Source: Eledone cirrhosa | Taxonomy: Eukaryota | Length of the DNA: 64,000 nt | Direction of reading: 5' to 3' | Assembly (NCBI GenBank): GCA_964016885.1 | Contig: OZ024745.1 | Coordinates: forward strand, 42,780,001 to 42,844,000 | In this document: piece after piece, positions 8,878 through 58,535 of the stretch | Numbering within the stretch: the stretch's first letter is position 1 | Layout of the letters: every line of letters starts with the position of its first letter | Program-made: the position numbers and the translations under genes | The notes under the pieces: model-generated | Told to the model about the DNA's origin: nothing | Seen by the model: the letters and a program-made list of their open reading frames with translations, nothing else | Databases searched by the model: none

Positions 8878-8918
<41 letters not shown>

Positions 8919-8925
<7 letters not shown>

Positions 8926-9080
8926 AACACAGGAGGCTGGACTGGTGTAATTCCTTAAAAGTTTATTATACTATGAACATTTCAATGACCGGGTTCAGTA
9001 TGAATCCGGTCATTGAAATGTTCATAGTATAATAAACCTTTAAGGAATTACACCAGTCCAGCCTCTTGTTGTTTTATAAT
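8919..9080. repeat. palindrome centred on a hairpin followed by GAAA and AATAAA (PLE-terminus-like)
   Basis: Near-perfect ~80-bp arms about aatgaccgggttca-gta-tgaatccggtcatt; similar terminus (ggactgg...tgttgtttta) at 36330-36440. Confidence 0.8.
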
Positions 9081-9227
9081 AATTAACTCTGTACTCGCAC
9101 CACCAACAACAGCACAAACGAAGACGGGTGAGTTGCACTACGTCGAGTGCTCTCCTTAATATTACATCAAGGTTGACTATACGGAATAACCAGTTCTATC
9201 TAGTGGTGATCCAACAAACCAACCTAA

Positions 9228-14825: not shown

Positions 14826-14898
<73 letters not shown>

Positions 14899-14904
14899 AT
14901 GTAT

Positions 14905-14931
14905 ATTTGCGTCTCATCCTTCGCAGGGGCC

Positions 14932-14964
<33 letters not shown>
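14905..14964 (-). pseudogene. U6 snRNA internal fragment (retro-pseudogene)
   Basis: Minus strand CTAAAATTGGAACGATACAGAGAAGATTAGCATGGCCCCTGCG-AAGGATGAGACGCAAAT matches the conserved U6 core including the ACAGAGA box; both U6 ends missing. Confidence 0.92.
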
Positions 14965-15034
14965 AAAATGTATTACACTCTACTAATGTACTGAGTACCT
15001 TACTTACTATGGTTACCCCTAATTGAACACGGGA

Positions 15035-19112: not shown

Positions 19113-20108
19113 TATTTCTTTATTAGCCACAGGGGCACAAAAGAAGGGGACAAATACAAAGGGGGAAGTTTACATACAATAAAAACGTGTAAAATGTTAT
19201 CACAGATGGAATTTAAAAGTTAGTCGATTTTCCCCAATAGAGGGAGACAGTTTATATGGGTAACACAGACCCCCGAAAAAAATGTGCAACCCTCATCTCC
19301 AGGAGTACGAAGAGCTTGTACTCCTTTCCTCTCCTCCTCCTTTTCCTCAACCTACAGGCTGATATAGAGAGAAGGCCCATTCACTCGGGCCATTCTCGCC
19401 ACTTTCATCCACCTTTCATAAAACTTGCTGGGGTACAGCACCTCTCTCTCCATCCTGATTCTTCTTCCAAAGTGGTATTTGAAAAAAAGAATCAGTTGTT
19501 GGCCGGAGAGAAAGGTGTCTGACCTCAGCCCTTTCAACCTTGTCCACCATACAACCTCTTTCGCCATAGCTATCACACAAAGGAAAACCGCCTCTCCTTC
19601 GTTTTTGAAGGAGGGTGGCGGTTTGATCATGACAATGGACTCGGTGGTCAACTGGATTGGTCCCACCCGCGACAATAGTCGTTCTACATAGCCCCACAGG
19701 TCAGTGACGCCCGGGCAGTGTATGAATGCGTGCGCGACGGTTTCTTCGTCTCGCACGCACCTCGGACAGATCTTTTTTGCAGGGTCCCTGCCCGGGCGCC
19801 CATGTCTGTAGAGCTTGTCTCGAACTGGTAGAGCTCCTCGGTAGCACTGCCAGGCCAGGGACTTTTGGAAGTTGTCCATCGGTCCCGGGCGGAAGGTCCT
19901 ACCGAACAGACTGGCCAGTTCATCTTCCTCCACGCCTAGAGTTTCACCGAGCGCGTCGTCGCACTTGCTGCGGACCAACCCTCTATAGAATGACGAAGTG
20001 GAGTCTCCACTGATCGCCGGGTCCGCCTGCCAGAGGGCTGTGAGCGCCTGAGCACATTCGATGTGCCAGTCGCCCATTTTCCTCGGTCTCTGCTTGACCC
20101 AGGACTGC

Positions 20109-20109
<1 letters not shown>
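19112..20109 (-). mobile_element. Tx1/L1-like LINE 3' fragment (zf-RVT region of ORF2, ORF 19352-20077) inside (GATA)n
   Basis: SLAWQCYRGALPVRDKL..CPRCVRDEETVAHAFIHCP cysteine/histidine motif; AATAAA then (ATCT)n; high GC relative to host. Confidence 0.85.
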
Positions 20110-20197
<88 letters not shown>

Positions 20198-20645
20198 TAC
20201 AAGCGCGAACTCGCTATCTTGCAGATTACGTATTTACTTGTAACATTGCTGTAAAGAGGATGACTTGGTGAACTTATTTAACCATCTTGATAAAGACTTC
20301 ACCAAAAATGGAAATCTGTACCGAAAACACTCATGACAAACGTCAACTGTATTATCACTATAGGCATCTCTGTGCAAGTGCAAACACTAGAATGCGTGCT
20401 ACAGTTTAAATAGCTGAGCTATAGGGCGAGGAGGGGGGTGATCATTAATGGTAACGGAACAAGACATGAAGTCCTTACAAGAACCGCACAGACAATGACT
20501 ATCCTAACTATGCTTTAACCAATATAGAAATATAAGAGCATCTTTATGAAGAACAAGATCAGACTCCTGCATGTACTGGTACTTTCCATTTTCCTGTAAT
20601 ACATGTGAGACAATGTGTGTTTCAGGATACATACATAGATACATA

Positions 20646-25037: not shown

Positions 25038-26012
25038 TGTTTCTTTATTAGCCACAGGGGCACAAAAGAAGGGGACAAATACAAAAGGGGGAAGTTTACA
25101 TACAATAAAAACGTGTAAAATATTATCACAAATGCAATTTAAAAGTTAATCCATTTTCCCCAATAGGGGGAGACATTTCATATGGGTAACACATACCCCC
25201 GAAAAAAATGTGCAACCCTCATCTCCAGGAGTACGAAGAGTTTGTACCTCTTTCCTCTCTTCCTCCTTTTCCCCAACCTACAGGCTGATATAGAGAGAAG
25301 GCCCATTCACTCGGGCCATTCTCGCCACTTTCACCCACCTTTCATAAAACTTGCTGGGGTACAGCACCTCTCTCTCCATCCTGATTCTTCTTCCAAAGTG
25401 GTATCTGACCTCAGCCCTTTTAACCTCGTCCACCATACAACCTCTTTCGCCATAGCTATCACACAAAGGAAAACCGCCTCTCCTTCGTTGTTGAAGGAGG
25501 GTGGCGGTTTGATTATGACAATGGACTCGGTGGTCAACTGGATTGGTCCCACCCGCAACAATAGTCGTTCTACAAAGCCCCACAGGTCGGTAACGCCCGG
25601 GCAGTGTACAAATGCGTGCGCGACGGTTTCCTCGTCGCGCACGCATCTCGGACAGATCTTTTTCGAAGGGTCCCTGCCCGGGCGCCCGTGTCTGTAGAGC
25701 TTGTCTCGAACTGGTAGAGCTCCTCAGTAGCACTGTCAGGCCAGGGACTTTGGGAAGTTGTCCATCGGTCCCGGGCGGAAGGTTCTACCGAACAGACTGA
25801 CCAGTTCGTCTTCCTCTACGCCTAGAGTTTCTCCGAGCGCGTCGTCGCACTTACTGCAGACCAACCCTCTATAGAATGTCGAAGTGGAGTCTCCACTGAT
25901 CGCCGGGCCCGCCTGCCAGAGGGCTGTGAGCGCCTGGGCACATTCGATGTGCCAGTCGCCCATTTTCCTCGGTCTTTGCTTGACCCAGGACTGCAGCTCG
26001 GTCAGCGAGACG
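25037..26012 (-). mobile_element. second Tx1/L1-like LINE 3' fragment inside (GATA)n
   Basis: Colinear with 19112-20109; has a 40-bp internal deletion and a premature stop. Confidence 0.85.
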
Positions 26013-34456: not shown

Positions 34457-35305
34457 CGATATTTGTCCCAAAAGTAAGAGTACAGAGTTTCCTATGTACG
34501 ACATGGTAGCGCAGCACCTCGTTGGTTTATCTAGGCGTCTTTGTTACGACCATGGCTATACGTACATAGTTGTTTCAACATGATTGATTGAGTCAGTTGT
34601 GAGTTATTAAAGGTTTATGTACAGACGTGTTATATAAACTCTGTAATGTTTGCGATGCAGTAAAAAATCAAACAACGGCACGCGATCAAATTGTGTGTTA
34701 AACTCAACAAATCTGCCACCAAAACATTTAATTCTTTAACAGAAGCTTATAAAGATGCCACTCTATCGAAAAGTAAGGTTTTTAAATGGCACATAGCTTT
34801 CAAAGAGGACCGAGAAAATGTTGAAAATGAACCTTGCTCTGGAAGGTCAATCTCGTCAACAAATGAACAAAATGTGGCATTGTTAAAAAAGAATGTTTAC
34901 CTCTTGGACAGACAGTTAATCGCACCTTCTACAAAGATGTCTTGGAACGACTTCGAAAATGAGTCCAACGAGTCCGAAAGGACATTCCAGGGAATTGGGT
35001 ATTGCACTACAATAACAGCAATTTCAATTAGAGATCTAGCAAAGAAAAATATTCCCACTCTTCCACATCCTCCCTACAGCACAGATGTAGCTCTGTGTGA
35101 TTTCTACCTCTTTCATGTTGTAATCGAAGTTGAAGGCGCTTCATTCTAGGATTTCAGTACTGTTATGATCAATTGAAAAAATGTTGGAACCCCACTGTGA
35201 CTTCCCAAGGATCGTGTCTTCAAGGAGATAACTTGTAATTTTATGTACGTTTAATATACATTTAAATCAAACATCAGTGCCCTTTCTTTTGGGACAAACC
35301 TCGTA
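34455..35305 (+). mobile_element. mariner transposon, internally deleted
   Basis: TIRs tacgatatttgtcccaaaag / cttttgggacaaacctcgta with TA ends; HTH CVKLNKSATKTF..VFKWH..EPCSGR and PHPPYSTDVALCDFYLF. Confidence 0.9.
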
Positions 35306-47425: not shown

Positions 47426-47519
47426 AAAATGATACATGACATACCCTGACATGGTAGATGGTTAAGATTTAATCAAGGTAGTGATATAAAAGATATAAAA
47501 TATATATATATATATATAA

Positions 47520-47665
47520 GTTTATCCCGGGTTCAATCGGGGTAACCACAGTAAGGTACTCAATACACAGCAAAGTATAAATATTTAATATAGAATTGGC
47601 TTCTACAAGACTAGAACTGTTTCATTTCTCCCGAATGAAACAATTCTAGTCCTGTAGAAGCCAAT

Positions 47666-47674
<9 letters not shown>
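47520..47674. mobile_element. family B palindromic element centred on hammerhead stem II
   Basis: ...ctagaactgtttcatt-tctcccg-aatGAAAcaattctagtcctgTAgaag...; long left arm carries the family B tail. Confidence 0.75.
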
Positions 47675-47725
<51 letters not shown>

Positions 47726-47737
47726 TTAATATAGATG

Positions 47738-47788
47738 AGATTCTACAGGACTAGAACTGTTTCATTCTTTAGAAATCATCAGCAATCT
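47738..47788 (-). ncRNA. type I hammerhead (family B), first stem I pair mismatched
   Basis: agattg-CTGATGA-tttctaaagaat-GAAA-cag ttctagtc ctg-TA^-gaatct. Confidence 0.65.
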
Positions 47789-48003
47789 GGGTATCAAAAA
47801 CTAAGTAGGAGAGGGTAGGGAGTGGGATGGGTAGAGGTCATTGGTTGATAGAAAAGGGAATTCATTAAAAGCTAATTCTTCAAAGCAATTAGCTTTTAAT
47901 GAATTCCCTTTTCTATCAACCAATGACCTACACCCATCCAACTCCCTACCCTCTCCTACCACCTGAAGAGACCTATAAATACCATACTTATTTGTTGATA
48001 CCC

Positions 48004-48054
48004 AGATTCCTGATGATTTCTAAAGAATGAAACAGTTCTAGTCCTGTAGAATCT
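48004..48054 (+). ncRNA. type I hammerhead ribozyme (family B)
   Basis: agattc-CTGATGA-t ttc taaa gaa t-GAAA-cag ttctagtc ctg-TA^-gaatct; 6-bp stem I, 4-bp stem III, predicted cut after 48048. Confidence 0.8.
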
Positions 48055-48629
48055 CATCTATATTAAAACTTTTATACTCTGCAATGTATTGAGTACCTTA
48101 CTTACTGTGGTTACCTCCGACTCAACCCGGAATAACGTATATATATATATATATCATCATCATCATCGTTTAACGTCCATCTTCCACGCTAGCATGGGTT
48201 ATATATATATATATATATATAGTGTGTGTGCGCAATGTACTTAGAAGTACCAGAACAGATTAAAAGAACTAGGACTTGTGATATGTGGACCTATACCAAT
48301 TGGATGACCTCTTCCACCACAGCTCTGGCCTGGTTCCATTACAACAATCATCATCATCAACACCACTAGAACTGACAGCACCCAGTTGAGTAATCCTAAT
48401 GTCAAGAGGGTCTTTGAGAGGAATTTTATCAGGGTGTACGAAGTTTTAGGGGGTGAGGTGGAGAATTCCTTCAATGTATATGCTAGTCATCAGTATATGG
48501 AAACATTTACTGAGATCACAGGAAATACGTGGATAGGCTGACTGTGAAGGAGGATGCTAAAGCTGTGAAATCTTGCATGCATTAATTTCAACTCTTCTTA
48601 TTGGTGGCAGCGGAAGCAACAGCAGCAGC

Positions 48630-55337: not shown

Positions 55338-55767
55338 CTAGGGCGGGTAAAATTCCCGAGATCCATGGACGAGTTCTCTCCGGCGGTCTCTGTCCCTCAT
55401 TATCGCTGCCATGTCCTGCGTCTCCAACAGACCAGTGTCTGTCCTTAGGGCATCAACATACGTTTACCTTGGTCTTCCTCTTCCAGTGTGTCCATGCAGG
55501 GGCTCCCACAGGAGCACTGAGTGCAGTGTCAACTCTGGAAGACCCGCTTCTTCATTGCTGCTGTACGGGTCCCAGACTTGGATACTGACCAAGAAACTCA
55601 CTCAGAAGGTGGATGGGTGCTACACGAGAATGCTGAGGATGGCTCTGAACATTAATGAGTATACACTGAGGATGAAAAACTCAGAGCTGTATGGGGGCCT
55701 CCCAAAAGTCAGCTCAAAAGTGACACAGAGGAGACTGAGGTCAGCTGGACATGCTCACCGACATCCA
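55338..55767. mobile_element. RTE-X-like LINE 3' fragment with 5' inversion
   Basis: 55338-55539 minus: PELTLHSVLLWEPLHGHTGRGRP..TYVDAL; 55540-55767 plus: LLYGSQTW..DGCYTRMLRMAL..RRLRSAGHAHRHP. Confidence 0.85.
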
Positions 55768-55832
55768 TATATATATATACATATAGAGAACATCGTTATT
55801 TTTCTCCCTCATATCAAGAATTTGAACACAAT

Positions 55833-55920
55833 TCATTTTCACCTGATGAGATCAGTGATAATCGATCATGGCTTCACAATCGATCTATCTCTTATTGAAA
55901 CATGTGTCGTGATTGAATGA
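55833..55920 (+). ncRNA. type I hammerhead ribozyme (family D), long imperfect stem II
   Basis: tcattt tcac-CTGATGA-[47 nt, atcgat/atcgat stem]-GAAA-catgtg-TC^-gtga ttg aatga; canonical GUC site. Confidence 0.65.
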
Positions 55921-56034
55921 TTAGAATTTTACCTTGCCTTCGGATTTTCATTTTGATACATATATATATATATATATGTATACGTACATACATATATGTA
56001 TACAGACGTACAGTAGTATGTATATGCATACATG

Positions 56035-56097
<63 letters not shown>

Positions 56098-56137
56098 GTA
56101 TGGGTTTACCAAACATTTATTCAACACTGACAAAGGA

Positions 56138-56180
56138 ACGATGAACTAGTTTCTAGCTTATTAGCTGTCATCAGCACGGT
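56138..56180 (-). ncRNA. type I minimal hammerhead (family E)
   Basis: accgtg-CTGATGA-c agct aata agct a-GAAA-ctag-TT^-catcgt. Confidence 0.65.
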
Positions 56181-56694
56181 ATACCTTCCTGTCAGTAGAT
56201 TGAACGTTTGAAAGTATATACTTTCCTTATGCATATTAACGGCTGAGTAGCCTAATTTTCATATCGAGTGAGTTAGTCGGCCGGGTGTAGCGAAAACGAT
56301 AAATGGAAAAAATGAAATTTCATTTCTCACACTTAGTACGGCTGATACTTAAATATAAGTATGTATACGTACATACATATATGTATACAGACGTACAGTA
56401 GTATGTATATACATACATGTACACATATATATATGTACGTATGGGTTAACGAACATTTATTATCAAGCTCGGTTTCGTCTGTATACATATATGTATGTAC
56501 GTATACATGCTTATATTTAAGTATCAGCGGTACTAAGTGTGAGAAATGAAATTTCATTTCATTCTTTTCCATTTATCATTTTCAGGACGCCCTGCCGACT
56601 AACTCACTCGAAATGCAAATTAGGCTGCTCAGCCGTTAATATGCATAAGGAAAGTATATACTTTCAAACGTTCAATCGACTGACAGGAAGGTAT

Positions 56695-56737
56695 ACGGTG
56701 CTGATGACAGCTAATAAGCTAGAAACTAGTTCATCGT
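56695..56737 (+). ncRNA. type I minimal hammerhead (family E)
   Basis: acggtg-CTGATGA-c agct aata agct a-GAAA-ctag-TT^-catcgt; stem I extends via ctgaca/tgtcag (56680-56748). Confidence 0.75.
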
Positions 56738-56861
56738 TCCTTTGTCAGTGTTGAACAAAATGGCAACGATGGTTGCCGAACACCGTACGGCTAAAAATTC
56801 GGGCTGTTTGTTTACAAACAAACCGAGCATTATAATAAACGTTCGGTAAACCCATACGTAC

Positions 56862-56894
<33 letters not shown>

Positions 56895-57013
56895 CATGTA
56901 TGTATGTATATACATACTACTGTAGGTCTGTATACATATATGTATGTACGTATACATACTTATATTTAAGTATCGACCGTACTAAGTGTGAGAAATGAAA
57001 TTTCATTTTTTCC

Positions 57014-57057
<44 letters not shown>

Positions 57058-57929: not shown

Positions 57930-58535
57930 TTTCTAGGCACAAAGACTTATGTGGCTGAGAGCACTGAGCAGAGACTTATTCATAACGATCTGAACATGCA
58001 CAAAGTTCGTTCCCGGGGTGGTCAATGAAGATCAAAGCCAGAGGCGCGTTGATCACAGCAGGGAGACGGTTGAGTGGATCGCTTCGAATCGAAGTGTCCT
58101 TGAGTCTCTGGTAACTTGTGACGAGAGTTGGGCCTACTGTTATGATCTAGAGACCAAGAGGCAGAGTGCTCAGTGGAAACTTTCTGACTCCCCAAGACTT
58201 AAGAAGGCCAAACAAAGCAGGTCGGCTGGGAAGCTCATGATGATCCAGGTCTTTGACAACAAGTCCATCATCTACACCCACTGGCTCTCTCATGACCAGG
58301 CAGTCAACAAAAAGTACTATGTAGAGAGTCTGAGACAGTTCAGAAAGGGATTATGTCACAAGAGACCAGAATTCTTCAAGTCTGGTCTGTGGCACCTACA
58401 CCCAGACAATGCCCCATAACACAAATCCATCCTGGTGACCAACTTCTTGACTTATATGGGTATCAAGACTTTTTCTTCATCCTCCCTACAGTCCAAACTT
58501 AACCCCATGGGACTTCCGGATGTTCCCCCAAGATG
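57930..58535 (+). pseudogene. mariner transposase fragment
   Basis: LVTCDESWAYCYDLETKRQSAQW..KQSRSAGKLM..HLHPDNAP, then PPYSPNLTP in another frame. Confidence 0.85.

What the first reader, a model, noticed from the sequence alone, without database searches (positions are those of the whole stretch)
55975..57018. Retrozyme-like concatemer: head-to-head arrays of a ~450-nt hammerhead unit
Seen: from an axis near 56476, the plus side reads X-Y(hammerhead)-Z-X-Y(partial), period ~449 bp. The minus side reads Z(end)-X-Y(hammerhead)-X with most of Z deleted. Unit X itself contains TA/CA microsatellite. Established: animal retrozymes are tandem type I hammerhead repeats processed into circular RNAs. 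Inference: more-than-unit-length, permuted copies fit rolling reverse transcription of a circle or partial-tandem PLE insertion, with tandem copies enabling dimeric cleavage through the AACTAGTT palindrome.
Basis: partly seen in the sequence, partly recalled or inferred. Interest (0 to 1): 0.75.

Follow-up and report, generated by a model that had tools for sequence, protein, structure and literature searches.

The report
Penelope-type insertion of a hammerhead repeat
Two oppositely oriented copies of a ~450-base non-coding repeat, each with one hammerhead ribozyme motif, sit back to back in an AT microsatellite; this is likely one insertion of a retrozyme-like parasite made by Penelope-like retrotransposon enzymes, a known kind of element.

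Summary
The geometry is real: axis 56475|56476, a 544-nt plus arm and a 501-nt minus arm, each about 1.2 turns of a 449-nt unit, 95% alike, with both outer ends running into (AT)n. But each arm holds one hammerhead, on opposite strands. These are not arrays, the locus cannot cleave as a dimer in cis or release a unit circle, and a read-through RNA is predicted to mask both ribozymes. The unit is a multicopy family in runs of three organisms, and no variant row shown falls in its core. A partial tandem plus an inverted 5'-truncated copy in (TA)n is the textbook Penelope-like (PLE) insertion, and animal retrozymes are already proposed as non-autonomous PLEs. A rare base shared by three copies and a ~33-nt overlap between the arms hint at one template of ~2.4 units primed twice, which needs no circle. 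No PLE protein partner was found; RNA was not tested. The scan noted a similar PLE-type footprint on an unrelated, ribozyme-free unit in another genome. Verdict: new member of a known kind; modest interest.

The parts
56476..57019 (+). Plus arm, 544 nt: X (56476-56576), Y with hammerhead (56577-56756), Z (56757-56859), microsatellite block, X again (to 57019); 3' end joins (AT)n
55975..56475 (-). Minus arm, 501 nt: end of Z (equals 56820 onward), microsatellite, X, Y with hammerhead, Z with deletion, microsatellite, first ~33 nt of X; 3' end joins (AT)n
56475..56476 (.). Head-to-head (5'-to-5') junction; the two sides start at different points of the unit, so it is not a mirror fold-back
56695..56737 (+). 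Type I hammerhead motif: 6-bp proximal stem I, CUGAUGA 56701-56707, 4-bp stem II closed by a C.A mismatch, GAAA 56722-56725, palindromic helix III 56725-56730, predicted GUU cut after 56731
   Evidence: activity not tested
56670..56756 (+). Extended stem I with internal loops enclosing the core
   Evidence: z -4.5 against 200 shuffles; distal pairs P about 1 in the single arm
56138..56180 (-). Second hammerhead copy, same core, one mismatch in stem I; predicted cut after 56144 on the minus strand
   Evidence: (relaxed scan)
56115..56116 (-). Junction of an 80-nt deletion (equals 56760-56839) between imperfect 6-nt repeats
56860..56925 (+). Internal (AT)n(GT)n and low-complexity block, part of the unit; the AT run differs in length among the three copies
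55975..56008 (-). 3' end of the minus arm, overlapping the 5' start of the plus arm (56476-56509) by 33-34 nt in unit coordinates
55958..55974 (.). Left (AT)n flank, at the 3' end of an unrelated hammerhead element (about 55790-55957)
57020..57054 (.). Right (AT)n flank; no target duplication can be resolved inside the microsatellite

Best explanation
This is a pair of inverted, slightly-more-than-unit copies of a multicopy 449-nt non-coding hammerhead repeat, likely laid down in one retrotransposition event by Penelope-like (PLE) enzymes acting in trans, and now likely a dead copy. Shown: geometry, AT-microsatellite flanks, multicopy family, conserved ribozyme motif, no coding capacity found. 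Inferred steps: (1) a tandem source locus elsewhere is transcribed into multimeric RNA; (2) a PLE GIY-YIG endonuclease nicks both strands of a (TA)n run; (3) both 3' ends prime reverse transcription at internal sites in X, 61 nt apart in unit coordinates, not at the ribozyme cut; (4) each cDNA crosses the unit boundary and the cut site, so the template held more than one unit; (5) the cDNA ends join head to head. I favour one uncleaved linear template of about 2.4 units primed twice (twin priming, about 55% within this model) over rolling around a circle (about 45%), because the plus arm stops ~33 nt past the point where the minus arm was primed.
For: Partial tandem plus adjacent inverted 5'-truncated copy and (TA)n targets are described for PLEs (passages, PMC8557442; passages, PMC3846280); opposite-strand hammerhead pairs 100-700 bp apart are reported as probable truncated PLEs (PMC4209133). 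A PLE protein in vitro cuts and extends both strands of AT-rich DNA, starts internally on the RNA and uses uncleaved RNA (PMC11167929). Family: 6593 contigs laid in X1, 4789 in X4, 48 in X5, 44036 of 12.5 million reads in X15; 8 of 15 listed joints are strand changes, all at different points (49 not shown). None of the 40 variant rows shown falls in 56701-56707, 56709-56720 or 56722-56730 (100 not shown). Single origin: all five copy-to-copy comparisons are 94.7-95.7%, and 3 of 3 copies covering 56538 carry T where 97.7-100% of depth in all four runs has A. Short duplications at the inversion point are a twin-priming signature in L1 (17% of inversions, median 22 bp). 11 of 12 hammerheads in the window have (AT)5+ within 200 nt downstream against 24% of random positions (not independent), and a second family shows the same head-to-head layout at 47518-48137.
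Against: No PLE RT or GIY-YIG match among 192 window frames of 55 aa or more, and no genome is held, so the partner is unseen. The ~33-nt overlap would arise by chance about 15% of the time. The single-template argument rests on one site. The two 3' ends differ by 61 nt, longer than the 30-40-nt PLE tail. Neither arm has two sense hammerheads, and no listed contig spans the whole laid stretch, so no true tandem source is shown. Stem II lacks the G10.1-C11.1 pair that PMC4209133 calls highly conserved, and the predicted lowest-energy fold is not the hammerhead (7.9 kcal/mol gap). Three of the 8 strand-change joints come from RAD reads, which can be ligation chimeras; the other five are single contigs.
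Confidence: 0.65

Rival explanations
1. Same family and enzymes, but the template was a ~450-nt circular RNA (hammerhead double cleavage, then ligation), copied past one turn from each target strand; the first reader's model.
For: Both arms exceed one unit and cross the cut site; all four block junctions close a loop. Circles are shown for coral, mussel and axolotl retrozymes. One period folds as a circle at z -8.5, 70% paired.
Against: It leaves the ~33-nt overlap to chance (about 15%). The folding score is weak support: 8 of 41 other 354-nt window segments reach z <= -5, the value of the microsatellite-free core. A PLE in vitro used uncleaved RNA.
Confidence: 0.3
2. The arms are only the pseudo-LTR ends of an autonomous PLE, severely 5'-truncated, with no independent short element.
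For: Identical insertion pattern; PLE pseudo-LTRs carry hammerheads and palindromes; the unit has 16-18-bp palindromes at 56543-56560 and 56650-56665.
Against: Both arms join X to Y at the same point and listed contigs in X1 and X4 run through X into Y (table 8), so the loop closes without an ORF; none of the 24 loose ends shown is recognisably coding (815 not shown).
Confidence: 0.15
3. A DNA-level fold-back duplication after insertion, or an assembly chimera.
For: Microsatellite-rich DNA is prone to both; the axis junction could not be checked in reads (skipped the low-complexity start).
Against: The arms start at different unit positions, differ at 14 of 278 aligned bases, differ by an 80-nt deletion, and no flank is duplicated; copies within one arm are as diverged as copies between arms.
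Confidence: 0.04
4. A non-autonomous Helitron/Helentron-type element spread by DNA rolling-circle replication; these carry microsatellites and a hairpin followed by CTRR at the 3' end (recalled).
For: The hammerhead's stem II followed by CTAG at 56726-56729 looks like such an end (sequence).
Against: Depth runs through 56729 in all four runs and no end or loose end is listed there (815 loose ends not shown); neither arm stops there; the surrounding bases fit a hammerhead core.
Confidence: 0.02

Closest known systems
Animal non-LTR retrozymes (Cervera and de la Pena 2020, PMC7229834; Li et al. 2026, bioRxiv 10.64898/2026.07.22.740005)
   Same: Non-coding unit of 150-450 nt, under 50% GC, one type I hammerhead with short palindromic helix III, many copies; axolotl HHR_Amex2 also has a mismatch at the base of stem II.
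   Different: This locus has no two consecutive sense ribozymes, is inverted, and has a microsatellite inside the unit; circular RNA is not shown. Neither paper's main text discusses inverted copies.
EN+ Penelope-like element insertions (Penelope/Poseidon, Neptune, Naiad; PMC8557442, PMC3846280)
   Same: Partial tandem, adjacent inverted 5'-truncated copy, head-to-head junction, microhomology deletion, (TA)n target.
   Different: No ORF; the whole element is the repeat unit; the two 3' ends differ by 61 nt rather than a 30-40-nt tail.
PLE minimal hammerheads (PMC4209133)
   Same: Extra base after CUGANGA, palindromic helix III, opposite-strand pairs 100-700 bp apart.
   Different: Canonical sizes here (stem I 6 bp with long extension, stem II 4 bp) and no G10.1-C11.1 pair.
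L1 twin priming (Ostertag and Kazazian 2001, as described in bioRxiv 10.1101/2024.08.27.596794)
   Same: 5' part inverted, short duplication at the inversion point.
   Different: No poly(A) or L1 target motif; template is a tandem unit; a works-like comparison only.

Membership tests
Animal non-LTR retrozyme | Type I hammerhead motif in the unit | tested here: met
   Descriptor hit above shuffles; no core row among 40 variant rows shown; no Rfam hammerhead match
Animal non-LTR retrozyme | Unit 150-450 nt, GC under 50%, no protein | tested here: met
   449 nt, 36.5% GC; the three frames over the unit gave no Pfam match
Animal non-LTR retrozyme | At least two consecutive same-strand units with complete hammerheads (Li 2026 'active' criterion), at this locus | tested here: not met
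   One hammerhead per strand; no 449-nt TRF row. The locus is not filed as an active retrozyme array.
Animal non-LTR retrozyme | Head-to-tail arrays elsewhere in the genome | tested here: inconclusive
Animal non-LTR retrozyme | Self-cleavage and circular RNA | not testable with these tools
   Needs bench assays; contigs and DNA reads cannot show it
PLE-type insertion | Partial tandem | tested here: met
   Both arms about 1.2 units
PLE-type insertion | Inverted 5'-truncated copy adjacent at the 5' end | tested here: met
   Axis 56475|56476; strand-change joints in 8 of 15 listed rows
PLE-type insertion | AT-rich or (TA)n target | tested here: met
   Both outer ends in (AT)n
PLE-type insertion | 30-40-nt tail at one 3' end | tested here: inconclusive
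   3' ends differ by 61 nt; family end positions confounded
Autonomous PLE | RT plus GIY-YIG ORF | tested here: not met
   0 of 192 window frames match either in Pfam
Helitron/Helentron non-autonomous element | Fixed 3' end at hairpin plus CTRR (recalled) | tested here: not met
   Both arms and read depth continue through 56729

The most novel reading that the evidence does not exclude
This family carries the PLE integration footprint (two-strand internal priming, head-to-head joining, (TA)n target) on a bare hammerhead repeat, and the arm overlap records twin priming on an uncleaved multimer. Across thousands of copies this would be direct genomic evidence for which enzyme moves animal retrozymes and whether the circle is the transposition template or a by-product.
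Probability: 0.3. Interest if true: 0.55.

Novelty: new member of a known kind. Interest (0 to 1): 0.33.

Why it matters
The link between retrozymes and PLEs now rests on co-occurrence and sequence trees; Li et al. 2026 state that the mechanism remains open. A high-copy family with frequent inversions and scorable ends would make circle versus linear multimer testable from a genome alone. This single locus is an ordinary decayed insertion and cannot settle it.

Tried and rejected
Whole genome: none held. Rfam: no hammerhead match. Run search: no RNA holder listed. Exact core patterns: 0 matches in metagenome contigs and 0 in viral contigs. Earlier findings by sequence and by place: none. Fixed 3' end at 56553/56554: 7761 X15 reads leave the element there into mixed sequence, but the point coincides with an AATT site, and 6975 molecules end at the AATT site at 56618-56621, so it is likely a restriction-ligation artefact and I rejected it as evidence. 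X4 loose ends at 56556-56567 sit on the window's private 6-nt duplication: inconclusive. Idea that the window's C/A/U variant is a more inactive switch form: the decoy hairpins vanish with the majority letters (stem II P 0.37 to 1.0), but proximal stem I falls (0.91 to 0.14) and the gap to the active fold is unchanged (7.9 to 7.6 kcal/mol): inconclusive. Stem I covariation (56698, 56734 in X4): linkage not visible, inconclusive. Folding z as proof of a structured circle: rejected by the control. Pol III boxes on the sense strand: none with my recalled patterns; ARAGORN 0 genes. Literature: a search for 'hammerhead ribozyme' plus 'octopus' (host guessed from a recalled impression of the repeat landscape, confirmed by no call) listed 4 papers, none on such a family by title; two searches listed no paper on inverted retrozyme copies.

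Full report
Observation. The window is microsatellite-rich DNA of about 27-48% GC, by inference from an animal; no call names the host and no genome is held. The locus is two arms meeting 5' to 5' at 56475|56476. The plus arm (56476-57019, 544 nt) reads X, Y, Z, microsatellite, X with a 449-nt spacing. The minus arm (56475-55975, 501 nt) starts near the end of Z, then reads microsatellite, X, Y, Z lacking 80 nt, microsatellite and the first ~33 nt of X. Five pairwise comparisons between copies give 94.7-95.7% identity. Both outer ends run into (AT)n. Each arm is about 1.2 units, and TRF lists no 449-nt period, so 'arrays' overstates it.

The hammerhead. Each arm has one type I motif: CUGAUGA at 56701 (+) and 56174 (-), a 4-bp stem II closed by a C.A mismatch, GAAA, a 6-nt palindromic helix III and a GUU triplet with the cut at 56731|56732. 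A long stem I encloses it (z -4.5). My descriptor, written after seeing the motif, gave 9 strict hits in the window against 0.08 per shuffle (60 shuffles, max 2); the minus copy needs the relaxed version. Rfam has no hammerhead match here. The predicted lowest-energy fold uses decoy hairpins rather than the active core. Because the two motifs are on opposite strands, no transcript of this locus carries two in sense. In a predicted read-through fold all 31 core bases pair with the other arm and stem I probability is 0. The locus therefore cannot supply a unit circle or a cis dimer.

The family. Four runs were laid on 56476-56858 at 80% likeness: 6593 contigs in X1 and 44036 of 12.5 million RAD reads in X15 (organism A), 4789 contigs in X4 (organism B), 48 in X5 (organism C). 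Depth is no copy number, but thousands of distinct contigs show a multicopy family. None of the 40 variant rows shown lies in the core or stem II (100 more not shown). Two variants alternate: the window's C.A/GUU form dominates X4 (88-98% of depth at the three sites), while U.U/GUA dominates X15 and X5 (90-97%) and is 51-76% in X1. Both keep a mismatch at the base of stem II and a permitted cleavage triplet. Of 15 joints listed, 8 are strand changes at different points (3 in RAD reads, 5 in single contigs; 49 not shown). The apparent sharp end at 56553 coincides with an AATT site and was set aside. The axis junction and the microsatellite-to-X junction were not testable in these runs.

One event. 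At 56538, 3 of 3 local copies have T where 97.7-100% of depth in all four runs has A. Seven other listed differences are found in the first plus copy but not in the other local copies, as expected from later decay. This suggests one source template, on one site's evidence. In unit coordinates the minus arm's 3' end overlaps the plus arm's 5' start by 33-34 nt, so the arms can be read as consecutive parts of one template of about 2.4 units with the 5' part inverted. That is the twin-priming pattern, where short duplications mark 17% of L1 inversions (median 22 bp). Chance would give such closeness about 15% of the time, so it is a hint only.

Mechanism. Shown: geometry, flanks, family, motif, no Pfam RT or GIY-YIG match in 192 frames. 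Inferred: a PLE protein in trans nicks both strands of (TA)n and primes internally in X at two sites 61 nt apart; both cDNAs cross the cut site, so the template was an uncleaved multimer or a circle; the ends join head to head. A PLE protein does the first steps in vitro and does not need ribozyme cleavage. The window supports a genome-wide habit: 12 hammerhead motifs of several families, 11 with (AT)5+ within 200 nt downstream against 24% of random positions (not independent), and a second head-to-head pair at 47518-48137. Against: the partner is unseen, no true tandem is shown, and the circle's folding score is matched by 8 of 41 control segments.

What is known. PMC8557442 (passages) and PMC3846280 (passages) describe partial tandems with an adjacent inverted 5'-truncated copy, and (TA)n targets for Naiads. 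PMC4209133 (parts 1-2 of 4) reports opposite-strand hammerhead pairs 100-700 bp apart and already proposes circles as templates for more-than-unit copies. PMC7229834 (parts 2-4 of 6) defines animal retrozymes and shows their circles. bioRxiv 10.64898/2026.07.22.740005 (parts 1-3 of 5) argues that they are non-autonomous PLEs. PMC11167929 was read in parts 1-2 of 4, and 10.1101/2024.08.27.596794 in passages. Term searches of the two retrozyme papers found no discussion of inverted copies, and searches listed no paper on this family; the library lacks most subscription papers.

Verdict. It works like a PLE insertion of a retrozyme. The locus fails the two-consecutive-ribozyme test, so it is not an active retrozyme array; the family is probably one, unproven. 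New member of a known kind, interest 0.33. The value lies in the family as a test bed for circle versus linear template.

Noticed in passing
window 47518-48137: Second head-to-head hammerhead pair of another family (47782 -, 48010 +; arms 96-97% alike), both outer ends at the same unit position and in (TA)n, with a small inverted piece and (TA)n inside the left arm.
   Followed up: partly
window 5013 -, 13614 +, 47418 -, 55222 +: Four diverged copies of one hammerhead family with an all-A/U helix III; three end at a similar point in (TA)n about 100-110 nt downstream.
   Followed up: partly
window 3314 +, 27777 +, 55843 +, 4081 -: Further hammerhead motifs, three with long stem II regions; the 55790-55957 element directly abuts the finding and supplies its left (AT)n target.
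   Followed up: partly
window 55340-55766: Fragment that resembles the 3' end of an RTE-type LINE (recalled motifs), apparently with an internal inversion; no Pfam match.
   Followed up: no
window 14881-14986 -: U6 snRNA match above the Rfam gathering score whose 3' end runs into microsatellite: likely a truncated retrocopy.
   Followed up: no
window 56543-56560 and 56650-56665: Perfect 18- and 16-bp palindromes in the unit, the second TATA-centred and about 35 nt upstream of the core; PLE pseudo-LTRs have such features.
   Followed up: partly
window 56759 onward, run X15: Other deletions in Z start at the same point, the foot of the long stem I (joint 56759 to 56796, 110 reads).
   Followed up: no
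window 8912-9086: Long near-perfect inverted repeat.
   Followed up: no
window 19355-20233, 25334-25723, 34664-35146, 57994-58416: LINE zf-RVT fragments (two copies) and mariner transposase fragments.
   Followed up: no
window about 8520, 14100, 14800, 23100, 63700: A short repeated element seen as recurring similar translations in the ORF list, next to (TA)n.
   Followed up: no
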